Of a stretch of 64,000 nt of DNA, positions 49,053 to 62,330 are shown one piece after another (position 1 is the stretch's first letter; each line of letters begins with the position of its first letter). Source of the DNA: Candidatus Magasanikbacteria bacterium RIFCSPHIGHO2_01_FULL_41_23 (lineage in GTDB: Bacteria > Patescibacteriota > Patescibacteriia > Magasanikbacterales > UBA922); NCBI GenBank assembly GCA_001782805.1, contig MFPT01000002.1, positions 69,401 to 133,400 on the forward strand, given 5' to 3'. A program made the translations under genes and the position numbers. The notes below the pieces were generated by a model. The model was given only the letters and a program-made list of their open reading frames with translations. It had not been told where the DNA came from and searched no databases.

Positions 49053-49961
49053 ATGGACGGAATTCCGGTTTTGGACATGTCTGAGTTCGGGGCTCATCCC
49101 GAACAGGACAAGCGTATCGCCGACTTGATCGGCGAGAACGCGAGAACGCTCAGCTTCATGGCCATCACTGGCCACGGAGTCGAAAACTCGCTCATCAACG
49201 ACGCGTTCGAGGCCATGCGCCAGGTCTTTCAGACCGGCATGACCGAGACGGAACGTCTCCACTACGAGTTCCCCGAGATCGGGCGTCAGGTGGGCTACAC
49301 GCCACCCGACACCGAACAATCGGTGGGACACGCGCTCAAGAACCGCATGCGCTTCTGGCACGTCATGGATCCCAAGTGCGGAATCCGGAACGTGTTCCCC
49401 AGCGAGGTTCTGGAGTTCGAGCGTGTCATGCTGGATCTGCATGCTGCGCTCAAGGGATTCGCGGCCAAAGTGCTCCGAGCCGTGGCCATCCATCTCGGCC
49501 GCGACCCCGAGTTCTTCGTCCGCTGGATCGAGGATGGCGCGAACCTGCTCCGCCCCATCCACTACCCGGCCCTGAACGGCGATGAGAATGTGGAACGCTC
49601 GGGCTCTCACACCGACATCAACCTCATCACCATCCTCGCGCCGGCCACTGTTCCAGGTCTCCGAGTAATGGGACCGGACGGCCAGTGGATCGACGCCAAC
49701 AACCCGCCCGGCACGCTCATCGTCAACTTCGGGGACATGATGCACATGCACACGTTCGGCGAGTTGAAGACGACTCTCCACGAAGTGCACAATCCGGGAA
49801 CCGCGTGCCCGGATCGGTACTCCATCCCCATCTTCATCCACCCGAACGGTCGGCGCATGCTCGTGGGTACCCAAGCCTACCTGCTCCGTCGCCTTCGTCA
49901 GATCAAGCTCATCGGAGAGCTCCCGCCGAACCAGATCGACTACCAGGACATCGAGTCCTAG
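49053..49961 (+). CDS. 2-oxoglutarate/Fe(II)-dependent oxygenase (isopenicillin N synthase-like superfamily), GC-rich foreign gene
   Basis: HTD...H facial triad (SGSHTDINL ... HEVHNPG). About 62% GC against about 38% flanks. ORFs on the other strands of this region are composition artefacts. Confidence 0.7.
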   Translation: MDGIPVLDMSEFGAHPEQDKRIADLIGENARTLSFMAITGHGVENSLINDAFEAMRQVFQTGMTETERLHYEFPEIGRQVGYTPPDTEQSVGHALKNRMRFWHVMDPKCGIRNVFPSEVLEFERVMLDLHAALKGFAAKVLRAVAIHLGRDPEFFVRWIEDGANLLRPIHYPALNGDENVERSGSHTDINLITILAPATVPGLRVMGPDGQWIDANNPPGTLIVNFGDMMHMHTFGELKTTLHEVHNPGTACPDRYSIPIFIHPNGRRMLVGTQAYLLRRLRQIKLIGELPPNQIDYQDIES

Positions 49962-56331: not shown

Positions 56332-57237
56332 TTAATTTTTTTGGATAACACGAAGTTTGGCTGATCGCGCGCGCGGATTTGCTTTATATTCTTCTTCGCC
56401 ACATACAATTGGTTTTTTGGTAATAATCGTTGCGCTATTTTTTTGTTCCAAATCTTTAAAATAATGTTTGACTATTCTGTCTTCCAACGAATGAAAAGTG
56501 ATAACTGCCAATCGTCCGCCTGAAGCTAGGACTTTTATGGCTTGGGGTAAAACTTCTTCTATGACTTCCAATTCCCGATTAACCGCGATGCGCAAAGCCT
56601 GAAATATTTTTGTGGCCGGATGTAGTCCTCCAATCCAAGGAATTTCTTTATCGGTTTTTAATTTTTTCCGATATGTTGCTAAAATTATTTCCGTCAATTG
56701 TCCGGTTTGTTTAATTGGCTCGCCTTGGCGATACGAAATTATCGCGCTCACTATTTCTTTACTTAAATTTTCTTCGCCATATTCCCGAAAAATTTGTTCC
56801 AGTTCATTAGCATCAAATGTATTAACAATTTCCGTGGCTGTAATTTCTTCCCTACCACTATACGTCATGTTCAATGGTTCATCAGTCAAAAAACTGAATC
56901 CTCGACCGCGCTCGGCGAATTGCGGACTGGACCAACCCAGATCAAGCAGAATTCCCTTAATTTCACCAATCGGATTTTCCGCGACAATTTTTTCCAGCTC
57001 GGAAAAATTTCCCCGCACAAACGTAACTCTGTTCGCGAACGAATACAGATATTGCTTGGCGCGTAACAATGATTCCGGATCCGCGTCAATCGCCAATAAT
57101 TGCCCGTTTGGCGCAGTCGCTTCCAGAATTTTTTCACTATGTCCGCCATCACCAACTGTACAATCAATGACATTATCATTAGACTTAAGTTGTAAAGATT
57201 CCAAAACCTCATTCAGTAATACCGGAATATGGCGCAT
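56332..57237 (-). CDS. rsmH: 16S rRNA (cytosine1402-N4)-methyltransferase
   Basis: MRHIPVLLNEVLE start and DCTVGDGGHS SAM motif. Confidence 0.9.
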   Translation of the reverse strand: MRHIPVLLNEVLESLQLKSNDNVIDCTVGDGGHSEKILEATAPNGQLLAIDADPESLLRAKQYLYSFANRVTFVRGNFSELEKIVAENPIGEIKGILLDLGWSSPQFAERGRGFSFLTDEPLNMTYSGREEITATEIVNTFDANELEQIFREYGEENLSKEIVSAIISYRQGEPIKQTGQLTEIILATYRKKLKTDKEIPWIGGLHPATKIFQALRIAVNRELEVIEEVLPQAIKVLASGGRLAVITFHSLEDRIVKHYFKDLEQKNSATIITKKPIVCGEEEYKANPRARSAKLRVIQKN

Positions 57238-57246
57238 ACAATTATT

Positions 57247-57678
57247 CTAAACTCCCAATTGACCCATCTGCTCGGCAATCGTGGTACTTTCGGCTTCCGT
57301 GCGTTTGGTGTATTCACTCCATTTGCCCGCGTCCCACAGTTCCAGCCGATTGTACAAACCAGCTACGACCACATCTTTTTTGAGCGTGGCGTACGAACGC
57401 AAATACTCGGGCAAAATTATGCGACCTTGTTTATCCACTTCCACATCCATAGCACCAGCCAGCATTAAACGCGCGAACGCTCGTGTGTTGGCTTGAGCAA
57501 ATGGCAGATTGGCCAATTTTTCTGCCAGTTTTGCCCACTCAACTTTGGTGTACAAAAACAAGCAGTTATCCAAACCACGCGTGACAAACGCTCCTTTGGC
57601 CAAAGCATTCCGAAATTTTTTCGGAACTGACAGCCGACCCTTATCATCGAGGCTATGTGAATATTCGCCGATAAACAT
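57247..57678 (-). CDS. mraZ: transcriptional regulator MraZ
   Basis: MFIGEYSHSLDDKGRLSVP start and two MraZ repeats. Confidence 0.9.
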   Translation of the reverse strand: MFIGEYSHSLDDKGRLSVPKKFRNALAKGAFVTRGLDNCLFLYTKVEWAKLAEKLANLPFAQANTRAFARLMLAGAMDVEVDKQGRIILPEYLRSYATLKKDVVVAGLYNRLELWDAGKWSEYTKRTEAESTTIAEQMGQLGV

Positions 57679-57810
57679 ATTTGGGGATTAATTAGGAATA
57701 CAAGCATTTTTCCCACTTTTCCCCACTTGTTTCCATTATATACCACAATAAAACACACAACAATCCCTTTATCCCCTATTTATCCACACCTCGACTCACT
57801 CCGTTCGCTC

Positions 57811-57893
57811 GGGTGGAAACAAAAAATCACCCGACGCCAATTAAAATTCCAATTCATTGGAGTTTTAAGGAGGTTGCGGGTGGTTTTTTGACT
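57811..57893. repeat. about 80-bp direct repeat R1 (hairpin-forming), left flank of NYN / GC-rich-ORF cassette
   Basis: aaaaaatcacccgacgcc ... aggagg..cgggtggtttttt is homologous to 59056-59131. Confidence 0.6.
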
Positions 57894-57989
57894 TTATACT
57901 TTTTATTGTTATAATTAATGTATAGGAGGGAGTCAAAATTATTTTTTGTAACTCCTTTGACGGAGTTTTTATTTTTGATTAAAAAATTT

Positions 57990-58478
57990 ATGATACAAAA
58001 AGGAGGGAATAATTTTGCGTTTATTGATAGTCAAAATGTTTATCAAGGTACTAAAGAACTTGGTTGGCGTTTAGATTGGCATCGATTCAGGATATATTTA
58101 CGAGAAAAATATGAAGTCAGCCGAGCGTATTTATTTTTAGGTTATATTCCAAAAAATGAAAAAATGTATAAATGGCTGGAAAATGCCGACTTTGTTTTAT
58201 GTTTCAAAAAAGTAACTAATGTACACGGTGAAATAAAAGGAAATGTTGATGTTAATTTAACATTGAAGGCAATTCTGGAGAAAGATAATTATGACCAAGC
58301 AATTTTAGTAACGAGTGATGGAGATTTCTATCCGTTAGTTGAATATCTTACAAGCATTAATAAACTTTACACAATTCTGAGTCCTTGCGAAACAACTTGT
58401 TCAAAATTACTAAAAGAATCTGCGAAAAAAAGAATTTATTTTATGCAGAGATTAAAAGATAAAATTGGTCAAAAATGA
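57990..58478 (+). CDS. NYN domain (LabA/PIN-like) protein
   Basis: FAFIDSQNVY...VDVNLTL...ILVTSDGDFYPLV are the NYN acidic motifs. Start at the internal ATG. About 30% GC. Confidence 0.6.
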   Translation: MIQKGGNNFAFIDSQNVYQGTKELGWRLDWHRFRIYLREKYEVSRAYLFLGYIPKNEKMYKWLENADFVLCFKKVTNVHGEIKGNVDVNLTLKAILEKDNYDQAILVTSDGDFYPLVEYLTSINKLYTILSPCETTCSKLLKESAKKRIYFMQRLKDKIGQK

Positions 58479-58710
58479 AAAAGCACCTCTGTGGGAAAGA
58501 CCGCATAGAAGTGCCTTTTCGTCGTATGTGCCCCGGCAGGGGTAAGTGAGAGAGGACTGCTTAAAGACGAAACAATAAGAAGGACTCACTCGTAATATGT
58601 ATTTACACAATACAATAAAGAAAACTATTTGTCAAATTTAAAAAACACCAAAAAACTTATTGACATCATCACCTAAAAAATATACGCTTAAATCAAACTG
58701 GGAGGAGTTT

Positions 58711-59040
58711 ATGTCACAAAGAAATCGAGGGGTGGAACTCAACTTCTGGGGAGATATGTCGTTTTCTGTTGGTGCGGAATGCACTGACATGAATCCGTTC
58801 CTGCAAGCCTTGGTTTTGGCGCAACATGGAATGACTTTGGAGGACATTAAACCGCCAAAGAAAAGCCCTGAAGAACGGATTGAGACTGTCTTCATTGAAG
58901 GTCTCACGGATGATGAGCTGAGGATCATCAAACAACTGTTCGATGAAGGTCGACATAATAACTTGACCGGACGCATGATTCTCTCTGCCTACCGCGCCGG
59001 ACGCAGGGACGAGAAGGAGGACAACAGACGTCGGTCATGA
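58711..59040 (+). CDS. hypothetical 109-aa protein, GC-rich (about 50%) foreign-looking gene
   Basis: GGGAGGAG RBS 4 nt before the ATG. Composition differs sharply from its flanks. No recognisable motif. Confidence 0.45.
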   Translation: MSQRNRGVELNFWGDMSFSVGAECTDMNPFLQALVLAQHGMTLEDIKPPKKSPEERIETVFIEGLTDDELRIIKQLFDEGRHNNLTGRMILSAYRAGRRDEKEDNRRRS

Positions 59041-59055
59041 AGATGACGCAAGGCT

Positions 59056-59131
59056 AAGGAGGAAAAAACCACCCGACGCCTGTTGAGATTCTAAATAATT
59101 AGAGTTTCAGCAGGAGGATAACGGGTGATTT
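59056..59131. repeat. about 80-bp direct repeat R2 (hairpin-forming, terminator-like), right flank of NYN / GC-rich-ORF cassette
   Basis: aaaaaaccacccgacgcc ... aggagg..cgggtgattttttt. The A-run/stem/T-run geometry suggests a bidirectional terminator between convergent genes. Confidence 0.6.
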
Positions 59132-59134
59132 TTT

Positions 59135-59776
59135 TTATGGACGAAAACCGGTTTTGATTAAATTTTGAATAGGCAAAAATAATGGCTGTGGCAATTCATC
59201 CCAGGCAAACCAATTCCAACATTCCAATTTTTGCGGTTCCATATTTACCACTTCACCGGCATCATAATCTGCAACAACATAAATAGTAATATAGTGCTTA
59301 TCTTCAGTTTCAAATACATCATTGGTCGCGGTGATAAAACGAATATTTTTGATGGTAATACCGACTTCTTCCATAGTTTCTCGTTTCGCGCAGTCTTCGT
59401 ATGATTCACCAAATTCAAGATGTCCGCCTGGAAAACCCCATGTTCCGTTTCCGTGAGCATTTTTTCTTTGTCCAAGTAAAACTTTACTATCTTTTACGAT
59501 AATTACACCTAATCCGACTTTTGGTCTTTTTAGTTGTTGCTCTGTATTAATTTCTTCAATAAATAAAAATCGCGGCCGATTTCCCCATTCCCATTCCACA
59601 TTTTCCAAAAACACTTCAGCCGGACGGACCATAAATTTGCAATCCAGCGGAGTATCGTAAAGCGCTTCGTACAACACCATGCCTCCCCCATCCCAATCTT
59701 CGGAATTTTTGACGACTTTATGAACACGATACAAATTGCCTTTGTAATGACGATAGATTCCTGATTTTATTTCCAT
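59135..59776 (-). CDS. DUF1653-NUDIX hydrolase fusion protein
   Basis: N-terminal YRHYKGNLYRV (DUF1653-like). C-terminal Nudix box GFPGGHLEFGESYEDCAKRETMEEVG. Confidence 0.65.
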   Translation of the reverse strand: MEIKSGIYRHYKGNLYRVHKVVKNSEDWDGGGMVLYEALYDTPLDCKFMVRPAEVFLENVEWEWGNRPRFLFIEEINTEQQLKRPKVGLGVIIVKDSKVLLGQRKNAHGNGTWGFPGGHLEFGESYEDCAKRETMEEVGITIKNIRFITATNDVFETEDKHYITIYVVADYDAGEVVNMEPQKLECWNWFAWDELPQPLFLPIQNLIKTGFRP

Positions 59777-59806: not shown

Positions 59807-61183
59807 TTATTTTAATTTTCGCAAACTGCGTTGAAACGTAATCGCGAACCGATGCGCTTCATCGCGCACGCTAATCAGAAGTGCTTGATTTTGACTTACC
59901 CATTGTACAACAGCTCGTTCTTTATTGCCACTTGTTCCGAGCGGACTTGTGGTGAGCGAAGTTGAACCAGTCGAGGGAAAATAAAAATCATTACGTTTAC
60001 GCTCCGGACCTTTGGCAATGCCGACCACGGGAATGGCGATTTTTAATTCTTGCAAAATTTTCACCACGCGATTAACTTGTGGCGCGCCACCATCAATTAA
60101 AAAAATATTCGGATATGGCCATTCCGTATGATGCAGGCGCCGACGAATCACTTCATCCAAACAATCCACATCACTTTGGCCAACGACCGTGCGAATTTTA
60201 AATTTACGATATTGTGATTTGAGCGGTTCGCGAGAATTGAATACGACCATACTTCCCACTTTTCCGGTTGTGCCTAAATTGGAAATATCATAGCCTTCAA
60301 TACGAATATTTTTTGTTTCATTTTTTTGTTCCAAATCAAAAAAATTAAATGGCTTGTCCTGACTTGTACCGAGCGAAGTCGAGGTAGCCATGTCGAAGGA
60401 AAAAAAATCTTTGTTAATGAGCGCCACATCTTGAATTGCGTTAAGCGCGCGCAATTGATTACGCAAACGTCCCGCCTCTTCATATTCTTGCGAAGTGCTG
60501 GCCTGTTTCATAGCGCGTTCAAACGTCCGAATCACACTTTGTTTTTTTCCGTCTAAAAATAAAACCAACGGCCGAATTACTTTTTTATTATATTCACGTG
60601 CGCTGATTTCATTCGTGCAAACACCCAAACATTGACCGAGTTGATAATAAAAACATGGTTTGATCGCTTTTAATTTTTGGGTTTTGAATAATGAATTTTT
60701 CTGACAAGTGGAAAAATAAAACAAACGCCGCAAAATTTTCATTACTTCGCGTGTGTTTAATCCTGGATACGGACCAAATACTGCGCGAAATTCTTTTTTA
60801 TTTTGGTGCAATTCGTGCTGTCGTAATGTGCCGACTAGCGGATACGCGTCATTGCTAATCGTAATATAATTCCAGCTCTTATTATCTTTGCCCAGCACAT
60901 TATATTTAGGCTGAAATTTTTTAATGTAGACTGCTTCCAAAATCACTGCCTCCAAAACCGAATCAGTTGTTTTCCATTTGATATCCGCGATTTCATGAAG
61001 CATCTGTTCAATCGGACGAATTGTTTTTTTACCGATAAAATAACTGCGCACTCTATTTTTGAGCGATGTGGCTTTGCCCACATAAATCAATTCACCGTTT
61101 GCATGATAATACAGATAAATGCCAGCTAGGTCAGGAACAATTTTAATACAATCTAAAATTTTTCTGGAAATGGGAAAATTCAT
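59807..61183 (-). CDS. uvrC: UvrC-like excinuclease (GIY-YIG plus RNase H-like endonuclease domains; lacks C-terminal HhH)
   Basis: GIY-YIG (GIYLYYHANGELIYVGKATSLKNR..Y), central Cys-containing UvrC region, endonuclease domain (EGYDISN..GKVGSMVVF ... RDEAHRFAITF). 458 aa is short for UvrC. Confidence 0.7.
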   Translation of the reverse strand: MNFPISRKILDCIKIVPDLAGIYLYYHANGELIYVGKATSLKNRVRSYFIGKKTIRPIEQMLHEIADIKWKTTDSVLEAVILEAVYIKKFQPKYNVLGKDNKSWNYITISNDAYPLVGTLRQHELHQNKKEFRAVFGPYPGLNTREVMKILRRLFYFSTCQKNSLFKTQKLKAIKPCFYYQLGQCLGVCTNEISAREYNKKVIRPLVLFLDGKKQSVIRTFERAMKQASTSQEYEEAGRLRNQLRALNAIQDVALINKDFFSFDMATSTSLGTSQDKPFNFFDLEQKNETKNIRIEGYDISNLGTTGKVGSMVVFNSREPLKSQYRKFKIRTVVGQSDVDCLDEVIRRRLHHTEWPYPNIFLIDGGAPQVNRVVKILQELKIAIPVVGIAKGPERKRNDFYFPSTGSTSLTTSPLGTSGNKERAVVQWVSQNQALLISVRDEAHRFAITFQRSLRKLK

Positions 61184-61418: not shown

Positions 61419-61459
61419 AAAAAATCGTCCCGAGCATAGTCGAAGGACGATTTTTTATT
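61419..61459. terminator. bidirectional Rho-independent terminator-like hairpin
   Basis: aaaaaaatcgtcc..ggacgattttttatt: a GC stem flanked by an A-run and a T-run. Confidence 0.45.
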
Positions 61460-61539
61460 GTAAAGAGAATTTTTTTAGTCTCAACAGCACAGGGTTGTCG
61501 GGACAAAAGATAGTTCTTTTGGAAAAGGAGTGGGAAAAG

Positions 61540-62067
61540 ATGAAAGGAATCACAGTTTCCTTGCCGGTTCAGATTGGAATCGGCCTCGGGATTGAATACT
61601 TCGGAATGGTCCCGGTTGAACCACAAGTTCAGCTGGACTCAATACGAGTTTATCCTGTTAGTGAGAATGGTGAGTCCGGACGGGTGACTCATTCCAACCG
61701 GATCGTGGTTGATCCGAATGATCAGAACTACGTTGCAGTGGTGAAGGCCATTCACAAGGTTCGTGATCGAAAGGATTTGAACTTCGGCCATGTGATCAAA
61801 GTCGCGTTGCCGAATCCAATCGGTTACTCGACCGGAGAGAAGATCATGTTCGTGGTCGTTCGTGAAGTAAGCTTTACGACCCGCGTCTGCCATGACATCA
61901 AGAACCGAGATGGTGTATCGGGCAAACATGCTGATGAAACCGTCCGGATGGCGATGCGACCGCGATCCAAATGCGCCAACTGGCACGCAATCGTGGATGC
62001 CTTGGCTAAAACGCTTCCGCAAGGAAACAAGACAGACAAAGGAGAAGCAGGCTATGCATCTCTCTGA
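61540..62067 (+). CDS. hypothetical 175-aa protein, GC-rich (about 52%) foreign-looking gene
   Basis: AAAGGAG RBS. Clear compositional shift from its flanks. No motif recognised. Confidence 0.45.
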   Translation: MKGITVSLPVQIGIGLGIEYFGMVPVEPQVQLDSIRVYPVSENGESGRVTHSNRIVVDPNDQNYVAVVKAIHKVRDRKDLNFGHVIKVALPNPIGYSTGEKIMFVVVREVSFTTRVCHDIKNRDGVSGKHADETVRMAMRPRSKCANWHAIVDALAKTLPQGNKTDKGEAGYASL

Positions 62068-62278
62068 AATTCTCCCGCCAGGTCTCCTCTCCGGAGACAA
62101 TAACAGTATCTTTCTGTCATGCCGGTGTCCTACCTGCAACAAAAAGCATCTGCCCGGCCAACTCAGGTTGATCGTCGCCGGAGCCCAACGCGGACTCATT
62201 GTCTGCGCGCATCACACTGATCCAGTCGCCGCGATCGAAATCGATCACGAGCTGCGCTGGTACATCGGTGTGATATGA
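62054..62278 (+). CDS. hypothetical 74-aa Cys/His-rich protein (possible zinc-binding), overlaps the previous gene by 14 nt
   Basis: AGGAGAAG RBS. CRCPTC...CAHH motif. Same GC-rich block. The overlap suggests translational coupling. Confidence 0.35.
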
Positions 62279-62330
62279 CGGTTTGGTGTTTCCCGTTCAA
62301 AACACCAGTTCCAACGCGCACCGATATGTT

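What the first reader, a model, noticed from the sequence alone, without database searches (positions are those of the whole stretch)
57811..59131. About 1.2-kb cassette (NYN-domain gene plus GC-rich 109-aa ORF) bounded by about 80-bp direct repeats
Two homologous about 80-bp sequences (57811-57893 and 59056-59131; aaaaaaYcacccgacgcc...aggagg..cgggtgRttttttt) flank a segment holding a very AT-rich NYN/LabA-like nuclease-fold gene, a region of imperfect hairpins (58480-58560), a TTGACA-containing promoter-like stretch, and a 109-aa ORF at about 50% GC with no recognisable family. Flanking direct repeats plus a mosaic composition between the conserved dcw promoter region and a convergent NUDIX gene are the signature of an inserted cassette, with att-like or duplicated terminator ends. 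NYN-domain proteins are predicted RNases, so pairing one with an unknown small protein could be a toxin/effector-partner or defence module.
Basis: partly seen in the sequence, partly recalled or inferred. Interest (0 to 1): 0.65.

Follow-up and report, generated by a model that had tools for sequence, protein, structure and literature searches.

The report
Hairpin-bounded accessory genes beside mraZ
The two 70-base repeats are real, but they are terminator-like hairpins marking module boundaries in a variable gene slot of a Candidate Phyla Radiation bacterium; the more interesting result is that the predicted RNase (NYN) gene inside always comes with a conserved, apparently undescribed antisense small-RNA gene.

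Summary
Two ~72-nt hairpin repeats (57821-57890, 59063-59134) flank an AT-rich NYN gene, a hairpin region and a GC-richer 109-aa ORF.

Five relatives keep uvrC and mraZ as neighbours, but each has different cargo between them: nothing, HicAB, PBECR3, or unrelated genes. So this DNA is accessory.

The repeats are not the ends of one cassette.
- One relative (L209) has the same hairpin at the same place next to the mraZ promoter, with unrelated genes.
- Another (L001) has 109-ORF, one hairpin, then NYN, with the 109 gene directly beside mraZ.

The hairpins look like long bidirectional terminators. Flank combinations and a reciprocal mismatch suggest recombination inside their conserved core.

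NYN and the 109-aa ORF are not a conserved pair. The ORF has only three known members and lies near none of 83 other NYN loci.

NYN's constant companion is a convergent small-RNA gene with a sigma-70 promoter and a covarying hairpin with U-tail, antisense to the NYN 3' end. It is found at about 78 of 83 NYN loci and is absent from Rfam. In the window it is tandemly duplicated (58471-58604, minus strand). A type-I-toxin-antitoxin-like module is my leading, untested, reading.

The parts
57821..57890 (+). Hairpin repeat copy 1 (HP1). It runs A6, outer stem YCACCCG/CGGGTGR, internal loop ACGCC / AGGAGG, 12-bp inner stem, then T6. It lies about 140 nt upstream of the mraZ start, between two divergent genes.
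   Evidence: (-36.3 kcal/mol, z = -6.3). L209 has a hairpin of this family at the same position and orientation.
57888..57915 (+). Near-consensus promoter of the NYN gene (TTGACT, 16 nt, TATAAT, preceded by TG). Its -35 hexamer overlaps the T-run of HP1.
   Evidence: 11 of 12 matches. The HP/-35 junction is collinear in L001.
57950..57975 (+). Short hairpin plus T-run inside the NYN 5' leader, possibly an attenuator (AACTCC...GGAGTT TTTATTTTT).
   Evidence: terminator-like site. The stem is conserved in L001 with a different loop. Function is inferred only.
57990..58478 (+). NYN/LabA-like (COG1432-type) predicted RNase, 162 aa.
   Evidence: Pfam PF01936, E = 3.7e-16. PDB 2qip, E = 2e-10. 471 homologues at E <= 1e-10, mostly Patescibacteria. 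D13, D87, D110 and D112 are invariant in the alignment.
58471..58526 (-). Promoter-distal copy of the NYN-antisense small-RNA element. It has an intact stem and U-tail and abuts the NYN stop codon. It probably acts as the terminator for both the small RNA and NYN.
   Evidence: Covariance model R1: 29.9 bits, E = 3.8e-4 on the - strand, against 15.6 bits on the + strand. Fold.
58542..58604 (-). Promoter-proximal copy of the NYN-antisense small-RNA element. It keeps the conserved loop UUUCGU at the canonical 63-nt distance from the -35, but its stem is degenerate.
   Evidence: R1: 33.2 bits, E = 6.4e-5. Spacing.
58607..58635 (-). Sigma-70-type promoter of the antisense small RNA (TTGACA, 17 nt, TATTGT), pointing toward the NYN 3' end.
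   Evidence: The same promoter sits at the same distance from the hairpin in 54 of 58 unique canonical elements.
58660..58688 (+). Promoter of the 109-aa ORF (TTGACA, 17 nt, TACGCT), back to back with the small-RNA promoter. The Shine-Dalgarno GGGAGGAG is at 58700-58707.
   Evidence: Both hexamers are conserved in L001, where this promoter directly abuts the mraZ upstream region.
58711..59040 (+). 109-aa protein confined to this lineage, with no known family.
   Evidence: Only P0001, P0002 and P0243 are known; 54-58% identity with conserved motifs. No family hit. AlphaFold2 pLDDT 47.
59063..59134 (+). Hairpin repeat copy 2 (HP2). Same architecture as HP1, but with a different 16-bp inner stem that still pairs. 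It lies between the convergent 109-aa ORF and the DUF1653-NUDIX gene, ending next to the first base of the NUDIX stop codon (59135).
   Evidence: (-35.2 kcal/mol, z = -7.5).

Best explanation
The interval between uvrC and mraZ in this Magasanikbacteria lineage is a variable cargo slot. Here it holds DUF1653-NUDIX plus two autonomous transcription units.

Unit 1 is a NYN RNase gene with its own promoter. It is followed by a convergent small-RNA gene whose terminator hairpin is antisense to the NYN 3' end.

Unit 2 is a 109-aa gene found only in this lineage, with its own promoter.

The two ~72-nt repeats are two diverged members of a lineage-specific hairpin. It is long and flanked by an A-tract and a T-tract, and it most likely works as a bidirectional Rho-independent terminator at unit boundaries. 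HP2 would stop the 109-ORF and NUDIX transcripts. The mraZ-proximal copy (HP1) would insulate the mraZ (dcw cell-division cluster) promoter.

They are not target-site duplications. Because the copies share an invariant core (CCACCCGACGC), recombination between copies has shuffled the units. The present order (HP, NYN, sRNA, 109, HP) is what a crossover between a resident mraZ-side hairpin and the hairpin of a 109-HP-NYN segment would give.

What is shown: the repeats, their folds and covariation; the variable slot; the permuted order in L001; the hairpin with other cargo in L209; and the NYN-sRNA association.

What is inferred: terminator activity; recombination through the hairpin; and the role of the small RNA. 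For the last I favour antisense control of NYN mRNA, in the manner of a type I toxin-antitoxin system.
For: Hairpin as terminator:
- The GC-rich basal stem is flanked by A6 and T6-8. Folds are far more stable than shuffles.
- Across four variants, 5 of 28 predicted pairs show compensatory changes.
- HP2 and the L001 and L209 copies sit directly after stop codons.
- In L215 a short, simple bidirectional terminator (AAAAAACACCG ATTT CGGTGTTTTT) occupies the position of HP1.

Variable slot:
-. Cargo includes HicA (E = 5.6e-16) and PBECR3.

Not a fixed cassette:
- L001 and L209.

Recombination through the hairpin:
- All four combinations of left flank (mraZ upstream region, or 109 3' end) and right flank (NYN promoter, or another gene's 3' end) are observed.
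- The outer stems of HP1 and HP2 differ at only one base pair. It reads U.G in HP1 and C.A in HP2, but C:G in L001 and L209. Swapping the 5' halves would restore U:A and C:G.

NYN-sRNA pair:
- Model R1 hits the antisense strand at the NYN 3' end in about 78 of 83 loci, at 43-84 bits, against 28-36 bits on the sense strand.
- 14 of 15 pairs covary. 93.8% of cells are paired against 80.9% in shuffles, with 0 of 500 shuffles reaching the observed values.
- The promoter is conserved in 54 of 58 unique elements, against 16% in shuffles.
- The only two significant R1 hits in the window (E < 0.01) lie at 58471-58604.
Against: - HP1 lies between divergent genes, where no annotated transcript needs a terminator, and it is much more stable on the strand that no known gene uses.
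- The internal-loop sequences (ACGCY and AGGAG) are conserved while the inner stems diverged. A plain terminator does not need that.
- Only four hairpin variants, from close relatives, are available.
- The reciprocal mismatch could be two independent substitutions (roughly 1 in 27 by position).
- L001 is a 1.6-kb contig that ends inside NYN, so its full layout is unknown.
- No transcription data exist for any element.
- I found no cognate pairing between the small RNA's 5' end and the NYN start region (p = 0.13). NYN toxicity is untested.
Confidence: 0.6

Rival explanations
1. The hairpins are true site-specific recombination sites that fold as single strands, like integron attC or the CTX-phage attP. 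On this view the NYN-sRNA-109 segment entered as a circle by crossover in the CACCCGACGCC core, catalysed by a host Xer-type or other recombinase encoded elsewhere.
For: - The outer stem and core are conserved while the inner stem is variable but still paired. There is an asymmetric internal loop and a strong strand bias in stability.
- All four flank combinations occur, and the outermost variable base pair shows a reciprocal mismatch.
- The L209 layout looks like an unoccupied attB.
Against: - No recombinase or transposase gene lies within 10 kb on either side. A weak tblastn test for a tyrosine recombinase in the window was negative.
- The attC core consensus (RYYYAAC / GTTRRRY) is absent from the sequence.
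- The genes carry their own promoters, unlike integron cassettes.
- In L001 the same genes join the mraZ side at a non-hairpin junction.
- Only two copies occur in 64 kb.
Confidence: 0.12
2. This was a purely local tandem duplication or unequal crossover. A terminator hairpin was copied together with neighbouring DNA, and the copies then diverged. On this view the hairpins play no part in mobility and the genes are vertically inherited.
For: - Both copies lie within 1.3 kb, and there are no others in 64 kb.
- The 109-HP and HP-NYN junctions are each collinear with L001, as a duplication of 109-HP-NYN followed by loss would give.
Against: - The inner stems of HP1 and HP2 differ at about a third of positions, while the outer 14 bp are identical except for the reciprocal pair. 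That is uneven for a simple duplication followed by drift.
- The slot's cargo differs completely among relatives with 85-92% MraZ identity. This argues for repeated gain and loss rather than vertical inheritance.
Confidence: 0.2
3. NYN and the 109-aa protein form a two-protein toxin/partner or anti-phage defence module carried as one cassette.
For: - The two genes are adjacent in the two lineages where the 109-aa ORF exists.
- The slot holds toxin-antitoxin-type genes in relatives.
- There is a partial PADLOC NYN hit, E = 9.7e-9.
Against: - No 109-aa homologue lies near any of 83 other NYN loci.
- The ORF family has only three members.
- The genes have separate promoters and a terminator between them, and their order is swapped in L001.
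- NYN's conserved neighbour is the small RNA.
- No complete PADLOC system is present.
Confidence: 0.06
4. The hairpins are copies of a small non-autonomous mobile repeat (MITE- or REP-like) that happened to land at both sides.
For: They are palindromic, about 70 nt long and intergenic, and they occur in more than one flank context.
Against: - Only two copies occur in 64 kb, both at this locus.
- No target-site duplication is visible around them.
- The L209 copy is at the orthologous position.
- Genome-wide copy number could not be measured, because the collection scan was swamped by chance hits.
Confidence: 0.03

Closest known systems
Bidirectional Rho-independent (intrinsic) terminators
   Same: GC-rich basal stem flanked by an A-tract and a T/U-tract. 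Placed directly after stop codons of convergent genes (HP2, and the L001 and L209 copies). The hairpin is maintained by compensatory changes.
   Different: The hairpin is unusually long (28 predicted pairs), with a conserved asymmetric internal loop (ACGCY / AGGAG). HP1 sits between divergent genes. Stability is strongly strand-biased. No activity has been measured.
Integron attC sites and the folded CTX-phage attP (hairpin recombination sites)
   Same: Structure is conserved while the inner sequence varies. There is a conserved outer box, unpaired central bases, and a mismatch pattern at the outer stem consistent with crossover near one end. Gene modules lie between sites.
   Different: The RYYYAAC / GTTRRRY cores are absent. 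No integrase is nearby. The modules have their own promoters. Only two sites are present. An A/T-tract terminator architecture is not an attC feature.
Type I toxin-antitoxin systems with 3'-overlapping antisense RNAs (B. subtilis bsrG/SR4, txpA/RatA; PMC3834814, PMC3531473)
   Same: A convergent small RNA with a strong promoter, whose 3' part is fully complementary to the 3' end of the protein-coding mRNA. The modules are patchy, often multi-copy, and located in variable regions.
   Different: The protein is a 162-aa NYN nuclease rather than a small membrane peptide. The overlap is only the ~45-nt terminator hairpin. Toxicity, RNase III dependence and antitoxin function are all untested.
LabA-like NYN proteins, COG1432 / PF01936 (PDB 2qip; PMC5499597)
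   Same: Significant Pfam and PDB matches. The acidic residues are invariant in the alignment. It is a single-domain protein of about 160 aa.
   Different: Function is unknown for the whole group (PMC5499597). The association with an antisense small RNA was not found in the literature searched or in Rfam 15.
Chromosomal integration hotspots and defence/toxin-antitoxin islands between conserved core genes
   Same: The core flanks (uvrC, mraZ) are conserved and the cargo is different in every relative, including HicAB and a PBECR3 nuclease.
   Different: The slot is very small (0.4 to about 5 kb). No integrase, tRNA or phage remnants are present. The boundary on the mraZ side lies just beyond the TTATCCACA box (57780-57788), about 100-140 nt upstream of the mraZ start.

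Membership tests
Rho-independent terminator | Stable GC-rich stem immediately followed by a U-tract | tested here: met
   Folds of -33 to -38 kcal/mol, z = -6 to -8.5. T6-T8 follows directly after CGGGTGR, with A6 on the other side for the opposite strand.
Rho-independent terminator | Located at the 3' end of a transcription unit | tested here: inconclusive
   HP2, L001 HP and L209 HP follow stop codons within 0-25 nt. HP1 lies between the divergent mraZ and NYN genes, with no upstream gene on either strand.
Rho-independent terminator | Causes transcript 3' ends in vivo or in vitro | not testable with these tools
   No transcriptome data are available.
Integron attC site | R'' (RYYYAAC) and R' (GTTRRRY) core sites at the hairpin base | tested here: not met
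   The base of the hairpin reads AAAAAAYCACCCG ... CGGGTGRTTTTTT, with no GTTRRRY core.
Integron attC site | Integron integrase, or an array of promoterless cassettes | tested here: not met
   No recombinase family appears among the genes within 10 kb on either side. NYN, the small RNA and the 109-ORF each have a promoter-like site.
Integron attC site | Structure conserved while the inner sequence varies | tested here: met
   Four variants, 28 pairs, 5 of them with compensatory changes.
Insertion with target-site duplication (IS or MITE) | Short direct duplication of target DNA flanking terminal inverted repeats, in many genomic copies | tested here: not met
   The repeats are themselves 70-nt hairpins. 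Their inner sequence differs at roughly a third of positions, so they are not a duplicated target. There are two copies in 64 kb. L209 has one copy at the orthologous site.
NYN / LabA-like nuclease (PF01936) | Profile match above the gathering score | tested here: met
   60.4 bits against a cut-off of 24.2, E = 3.7e-16. 2qip, E = 2e-10.
NYN / LabA-like nuclease (PF01936) | Conserved acidic metal-binding residues | tested here: met
   D13, D87, D110 and D112 are invariant in the 21-sequence alignment that includes the window protein. Their assignment as catalytic rests on PMC5499597.
Type I toxin-antitoxin (3'-overlap class) | Antisense RNA gene with its own promoter, complementary to the toxin mRNA | tested here: met
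   A -35/-10 promoter is present in 54 of 58 unique elements. The structured RNA lies on the strand opposite NYN and overlaps its 3' end in about 78 of 83 loci.
Type I toxin-antitoxin (3'-overlap class) | Toxin is a small hydrophobic peptide | tested here: not met
   The protein is a 162-aa soluble NYN nuclease. At most it works like a type I system. It is not a member of a known type I family.
Type I toxin-antitoxin (3'-overlap class) | Protein is toxic and the RNA neutralises it | not testable with these tools
   This needs expression experiments.
Type III toxin-antitoxin (ToxIN-like) | Tandem RNA repeats upstream of, and on the same strand as, an endoRNase toxin | tested here: not met
   The RNA is downstream and on the opposite strand. 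It is a single copy in canonical loci.
Known Rfam RNA family | Match at or near a family's gathering score | tested here: not met
   No hit in the window at gathering thresholds. No hit on the small-RNA region at E <= 10, nor at the NYN 3' ends of seven canonical loci at E <= 1. HP1 gives only a sub-threshold 'lactis-plasmid' match, 23.8 against 70 bits.
PADLOC defence system | A complete set of system proteins | tested here: not met
   Only a partial match to one NYN model (residues 151-302 of 310, E = 9.7e-9), plus weak noise for the 109-aa ORF.

The most novel reading that the evidence does not exclude
The ~72-nt hairpins are a new kind of folded-hairpin recombination site. They would be attC-like or CTX-attP-like and also act as terminators. 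Through them, self-contained modules such as the NYN nuclease with its antisense RNA would be inserted, excised and reordered in small cargo slots of Candidate Phyla Radiation genomes, using a recombinase encoded elsewhere. The NYN/antisense-RNA pair itself would be a new, widespread RNA-controlled nuclease addiction or defence module.
Probability: 0.1. Interest if true: 0.85.

Novelty: new variant of a known kind. Interest (0 to 1): 0.58.

Why it matters
Three things would matter if they hold.

1. It would give single-domain LabA-type NYN proteins their first conserved functional partner. Their function is listed as unknown in the PIN-superfamily survey (PMC5499597). The partner is a small antisense RNA present at nearly every locus of this subfamily, across Patescibacteria and several other phyla. 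This gives a directly testable hypothesis: an RNA-controlled nuclease that behaves like a toxin-antitoxin system.

2. It shows that even very small Candidate Phyla Radiation genomes keep a tiny hypervariable cargo slot next to the cell-division (dcw) promoter, filled with toxin-antitoxin-type modules.

3. The hairpins may illustrate how terminator hairpins with a conserved core can serve as portable homology for reshuffling such modules.

Tried and rejected
- **Metagenome scan for the hairpin** (CACCCGACGC N30-58 CGGGTG). It returned 120 loci, all chance matches in GC-rich contigs and none a true hairpin.
- **Rfam.** No family matches either element. A weak 'lactis-plasmid RNA' match to HP1 (23.8 bits against a gathering score of 70) was rejected as generic hairpin similarity.
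- **Structure prediction of the 109-aa protein.** Mean pLDDT was 46.8, too poor for a fold search. Sensitive HMMER searching found only three family members.
- **Pairing of the small RNA's 5' end with its own NYN translation start.** Cognate pairs scored no better than non-cognate ones (-9.1 against -8.8 kcal/mol, p = 0.13).
- **Possible paralogy in L208.** I checked whether the 175-aa slot gene duplicates the similarly sized gene beyond uvrC. There is no similarity.
- **A near-match to the hairpin core at 49282-49313.** It lies inside a GC-rich coding region and is not a hairpin copy.
- **Phages and plasmids.** No close NYN relatives were found: no phage hit at all, and only 25-27% identity on alphaproteobacterial plasmids. 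Only 3 of 2.9 million viral contigs carry one.
- **Strain-level variant L210.** It is identical across the whole segment and gave no new information.
Full report
**Source and layout.** The window comes from a Candidatus Magasanikbacteria (Candidate Phyla Radiation, CPR) genome bin from Rifle groundwater. Around the finding, the gene order is as follows.

| Feature | Coordinates | Strand |
|---|---|---|
| rsmH | 56332-57237 | - |
| mraZ | 57247-57678 | - |
| hairpin HP1 | 57821-57890 | + |
| NYN gene | 57990-58478 | + |
| hairpin region | 58471-58604 | see below |
| 109-aa ORF | 58711-59040 | + |
| hairpin HP2 | 59063-59134 | + |
| DUF1653-NUDIX | 59135-59776 | - |
| uvrC | 59807-61183 | - |

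**Checking the observation.**
- The motif CACCCG-N35-60-CGGGTG occurs twice in 64 kb, against 0.01 expected.
- The copies share AAAAAAYCACCCGACGCC at the 5' end and CGGGTGRTTTTTT at the 3' end.
- Each copy is itself a long hairpin. On the + strand the energies are -36.3 and -35.2 kcal/mol, with z = -6.3 and -7.5. The - strand folds are weaker, at -23.9 and -26.3.
- The inner stems differ between the copies, yet each pairs with itself.
- NYN is confirmed (PF01936, E = 3.7e-16). The 109-aa ORF has no family.
- GC is 0.27-0.32 over NYN and 0.47-0.51 over the ORF.

**Is it an inserted cassette bounded by the repeats?** I used MraZ homologues to fetch the orthologous locus from relatives. uvrC and mraZ remain neighbours throughout, but what lies between them differs in every case.

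| Relative | MraZ identity | Content between uvrC and mraZ |
|---|---|---|
| L215/L216 | 85% | essentially nothing (~400 bp) |
| L213/L214 | 86% | a PNP_UDP_1 gene and a 169-aa gene |
| L209 | 89% | a 1391-aa and a 170-aa gene |
| L208 | 91% | a HicB-like gene, HicA (E = 5.6e-16) and two further ORFs |
| P0129 contig | 88% | DUF1653-HD, a PBECR3 nuclease and a 144-aa gene |

- In L211/L212 (92%) the DNA upstream of the mraZ promoter is again different.
- So the segment is accessory DNA in a small hypervariable slot.
- No relative had mraZ directly beside DUF1653-NUDIX.

**The repeats are not the ends of one cassette.** Two relatives decide this.
- L209 has a hairpin of the same family: AAAAAACCACCCGACGC TTGCCAAGTTTCTCA CACGC TGAGAATTTTGACAGG AGGA CGGGTGG T7. 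It has the same orientation and the same position relative to the mraZ promoter as HP1, but it is followed by the 3' end of an unrelated 170-aa gene.
- L001 (MraZ 90%; 109-ORF homologue 58%) has the mraZ upstream region joined directly to the 109-ORF promoter. Then come the ORF, a single hairpin, the NYN promoter and NYN.
- Both junctions, 109 3' end to hairpin and hairpin to the NYN -35, are collinear with the window. The window therefore carries the same two junctions on two separate hairpin copies, and the gene order is circularly permuted.
- In L215 the position of HP1 is occupied by a short ordinary bidirectional terminator.

**What the hairpins are.**
- Architecture: A6, a 7-bp GC-rich basal stem, an asymmetric internal loop (5' ACGCY, 3' AGGAG...), a 12-16-bp inner stem, a 4-5-nt loop, then T6-8.
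- In an alignment of the four variants, RNAalifold predicts 28 pairs, 5 of them with compensatory double changes.
- The A-tract/stem/T-tract form is the usual form of bidirectional terminators in these genomes. Examples are 61424-61451 in the window, L215 and L006/L007.
- I therefore read them as long bidirectional intrinsic terminators.
- Two features go beyond what a terminator needs. The internal-loop sequences are conserved, and three of the four copies are much more stable on one strand.

**Evidence that recombination runs through the hairpin.**
- First, all four combinations of left and right flank are seen: mraZ upstream region with NYN promoter (HP1); 109 3' end with NYN promoter (L001); 109 3' end with NUDIX 3' end (HP2); and mraZ upstream region with another gene's 3' end (L209).
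- Second, the 14-bp outer stems of HP1 and HP2 differ at only one base pair. That pair reads U.G in HP1 and C.A in HP2, but C:G in L001 and L209.
- Exchanging the 5' halves would give U:A and C:G. That is the pattern expected after a reciprocal crossover within the invariant core CACCCGACGCC, between a resident hairpin (L209-like site) and the hairpin of a 109-HP-NYN segment (L001-like).
- By position alone, two independent changes hitting partner bases has a chance of roughly 1 in 27, so this is suggestive rather than proof.
- No recombinase gene lies within 10 kb on either side, and the attC core consensus is absent.
- I therefore favour homology-driven exchange between terminator copies. 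A dedicated site-specific system remains a minority rival.

**The hairpin region is a conserved antisense small-RNA gene.**
- I collected 83 loci encoding the same NYN subfamily (45-61% identity). Most are Patescibacteria, with some Bacteroidota, Chloroflexota, Gemmatimonadota and others.
- Their upstream regions are unrelated.
- The DNA at and just after the stop codon is conserved at the nucleotide level, regardless of where the stop falls.
- On the strand opposite NYN it reads: TTGAC[AT], 16-18 nt, TAnnnT (often preceded by TG), about 10 nt, AGAAUYCAYAnGAAAAAGCACC, a stem, the loop UUYCGU, the returning stem, GGUGCUUUUUC.
- 54 of 58 unique elements have the -10 hexamer at the right spacing, against 16% in shuffles.
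- In a 55-sequence alignment, 14 of 15 pairs show compensatory changes. 93.8% of cells are paired against 80.9% in shuffles. No shuffle in 500 reaches any observed measure, and slid controls fall to 47-62%.
- About 10% of cells are G.U or U.G pairs. These would be A.C mismatches on the NYN strand.
- A covariance model (R1) scores 43-84 bits on the antisense strand at about 78 of 83 loci, but only 28-36 bits on the sense strand. It finds no significant hit in the five NYN-less relatives searched.
- No Rfam family matches, and three literature searches found no description.

**The small RNA in the window.**
- R1's only hits with E < 0.01 are two adjacent minus-strand copies, at 58604-58542 (E = 6e-5) and 58526-58471 (E = 4e-4).
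- They lie downstream of a TTGACA, 17 nt, TATTGT promoter at 58635-58607.
- The promoter-proximal copy keeps the loop and the canonical promoter spacing, but its stem has decayed. The distal copy keeps the stem and U-tail and abuts the NYN stop.

**NYN and the 109-aa ORF are separate units.**
- Each has its own promoter.
- No 109-aa homologue lies near any other NYN locus.
- The ORF has only three known members, at 54-58% identity with clearly conserved motifs. It is therefore a real gene but confined to this lineage.
- Its structure could not be predicted.

**How it most likely works.**
- Shown: NYN retains the invariant acidic residues of its family, and it is accompanied almost everywhere by a convergent small RNA. 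That RNA's hairpin is the exact complement of the hairpin at the NYN mRNA 3' end.
- Inferred: the two hairpins carry complementary 6-nt loops, ACRRAA and UUYYGU. They can form a kissing complex and then a ~45-bp duplex, which would mark NYN mRNA for double-strand-specific cleavage or otherwise limit its expression.
- This is the logic of the 3'-overlapping type I systems bsrG/SR4 and txpA/RatA (PMC3834814, PMC3531473).
- Several points are consistent with a selfish toxin-antitoxin-like module. Genomic contexts are scattered. Loci are often multi-copy (L022 x3, L085 x3). Here the module sits in a slot that holds HicAB or PBECR3 in relatives.
- It fails one defining feature of known type I families, because the toxin would be a nuclease rather than a small membrane peptide. 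I claim only that it works like one, at about 40% confidence.
- Alternatives: the small RNA is a ligand, inhibitor or substrate of NYN; or the promoter-plus-hairpin merely insulates the gene.
- A test for pairing between the small RNA's 5' end and the NYN start region was negative.

**Verdict.** It is wrong that the repeats define a two-gene cassette and that NYN pairs with the 109-aa protein. The main new result is a conserved, apparently undescribed NYN/antisense-small-RNA module, sitting in a hypervariable uvrC-mraZ slot whose units are separated by recombining terminator hairpins.

Noticed in passing
window 57700-57790 (minus strand = mraZ orientation); also L001, L208, L209, L211, L213, L215: The mraZ upstream region carries three AAGTGG(G) repeats around a TATAAT box (...TAAGTGGTATATAATGGAAACAAGTGGGGAAAAGTGGGAAA...). 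These resemble MraZ operator repeats. A perfect DnaA-box-like TTATCCACA lies at 57780-57788. Both are conserved in all relatives. Homology among relatives ends just beyond the TTATCCACA box, which marks the edge of the variable slot.
   Followed up: partly
loci L012, L020, L022, L029, L032, L034, L043, L047, L058, L065, L067, L082, L086 (near the NYN/small-RNA modules): TGTGGATAA / TTATCCACA-like motifs recur in intergenic DNA next to many NYN loci of Patescibacteria. This may be a common promoter-associated or DnaA-type motif in these genomes. It was not quantified.
   Followed up: no
window 57922-57989: The NYN 5' leader contains GGAGGGAGT followed by a hairpin AACTCC...GGAGTT plus a T-run. 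The two GGAG(T/G) segments could compete for ACTCC, giving an attenuator-like alternative pairing. The stem is conserved in L001 with a different loop.
   Followed up: partly
L022 (three NYN copies within 4 kb), L085 (three), L032 and L072 (two each): NYN genes of this subfamily are often tandemly multiplied. Five of the six copies in L022 and L032 have their own antisense small-RNA hit, and one copy each in L085 and L072 does.
   Followed up: partly
L006 5493-5600 and L007 5490-5590: The two NYN loci closest to the window's NYN (57-60% identity, downstream of ribonucleotide reductase) carry a variant antisense element. It reads TACGAGAGYGAGTYC, a hairpin with loop UUAGU, and then a separate terminator. 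It shares the TACGAG(W)GAGTCC motif with the window's proximal copy, but model R1 does not recognise it.
   Followed up: partly
L002 15684-17425 (about 6 kb beyond uvrC in the source contig): A restriction-modification pair lies close to the slot. It consists of a DNA methylase with a MerR-type N-terminus and an Eco47II-family endonuclease.
   Followed up: no
window 49053-49961 and 61500-62300: These segments have markedly higher GC (about 0.5-0.6) than the ~0.38 background. Each has overlapping long ORFs on both strands. They may be foreign DNA, or unusual genes.
   Followed up: no
L005 5638-6183: In one relative, a XerC/D-type tyrosine recombinase gene lies immediately downstream of the NYN/small-RNA module. 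This is probably coincidental, but it is relevant to the recombination-site rival.
   Followed up: no
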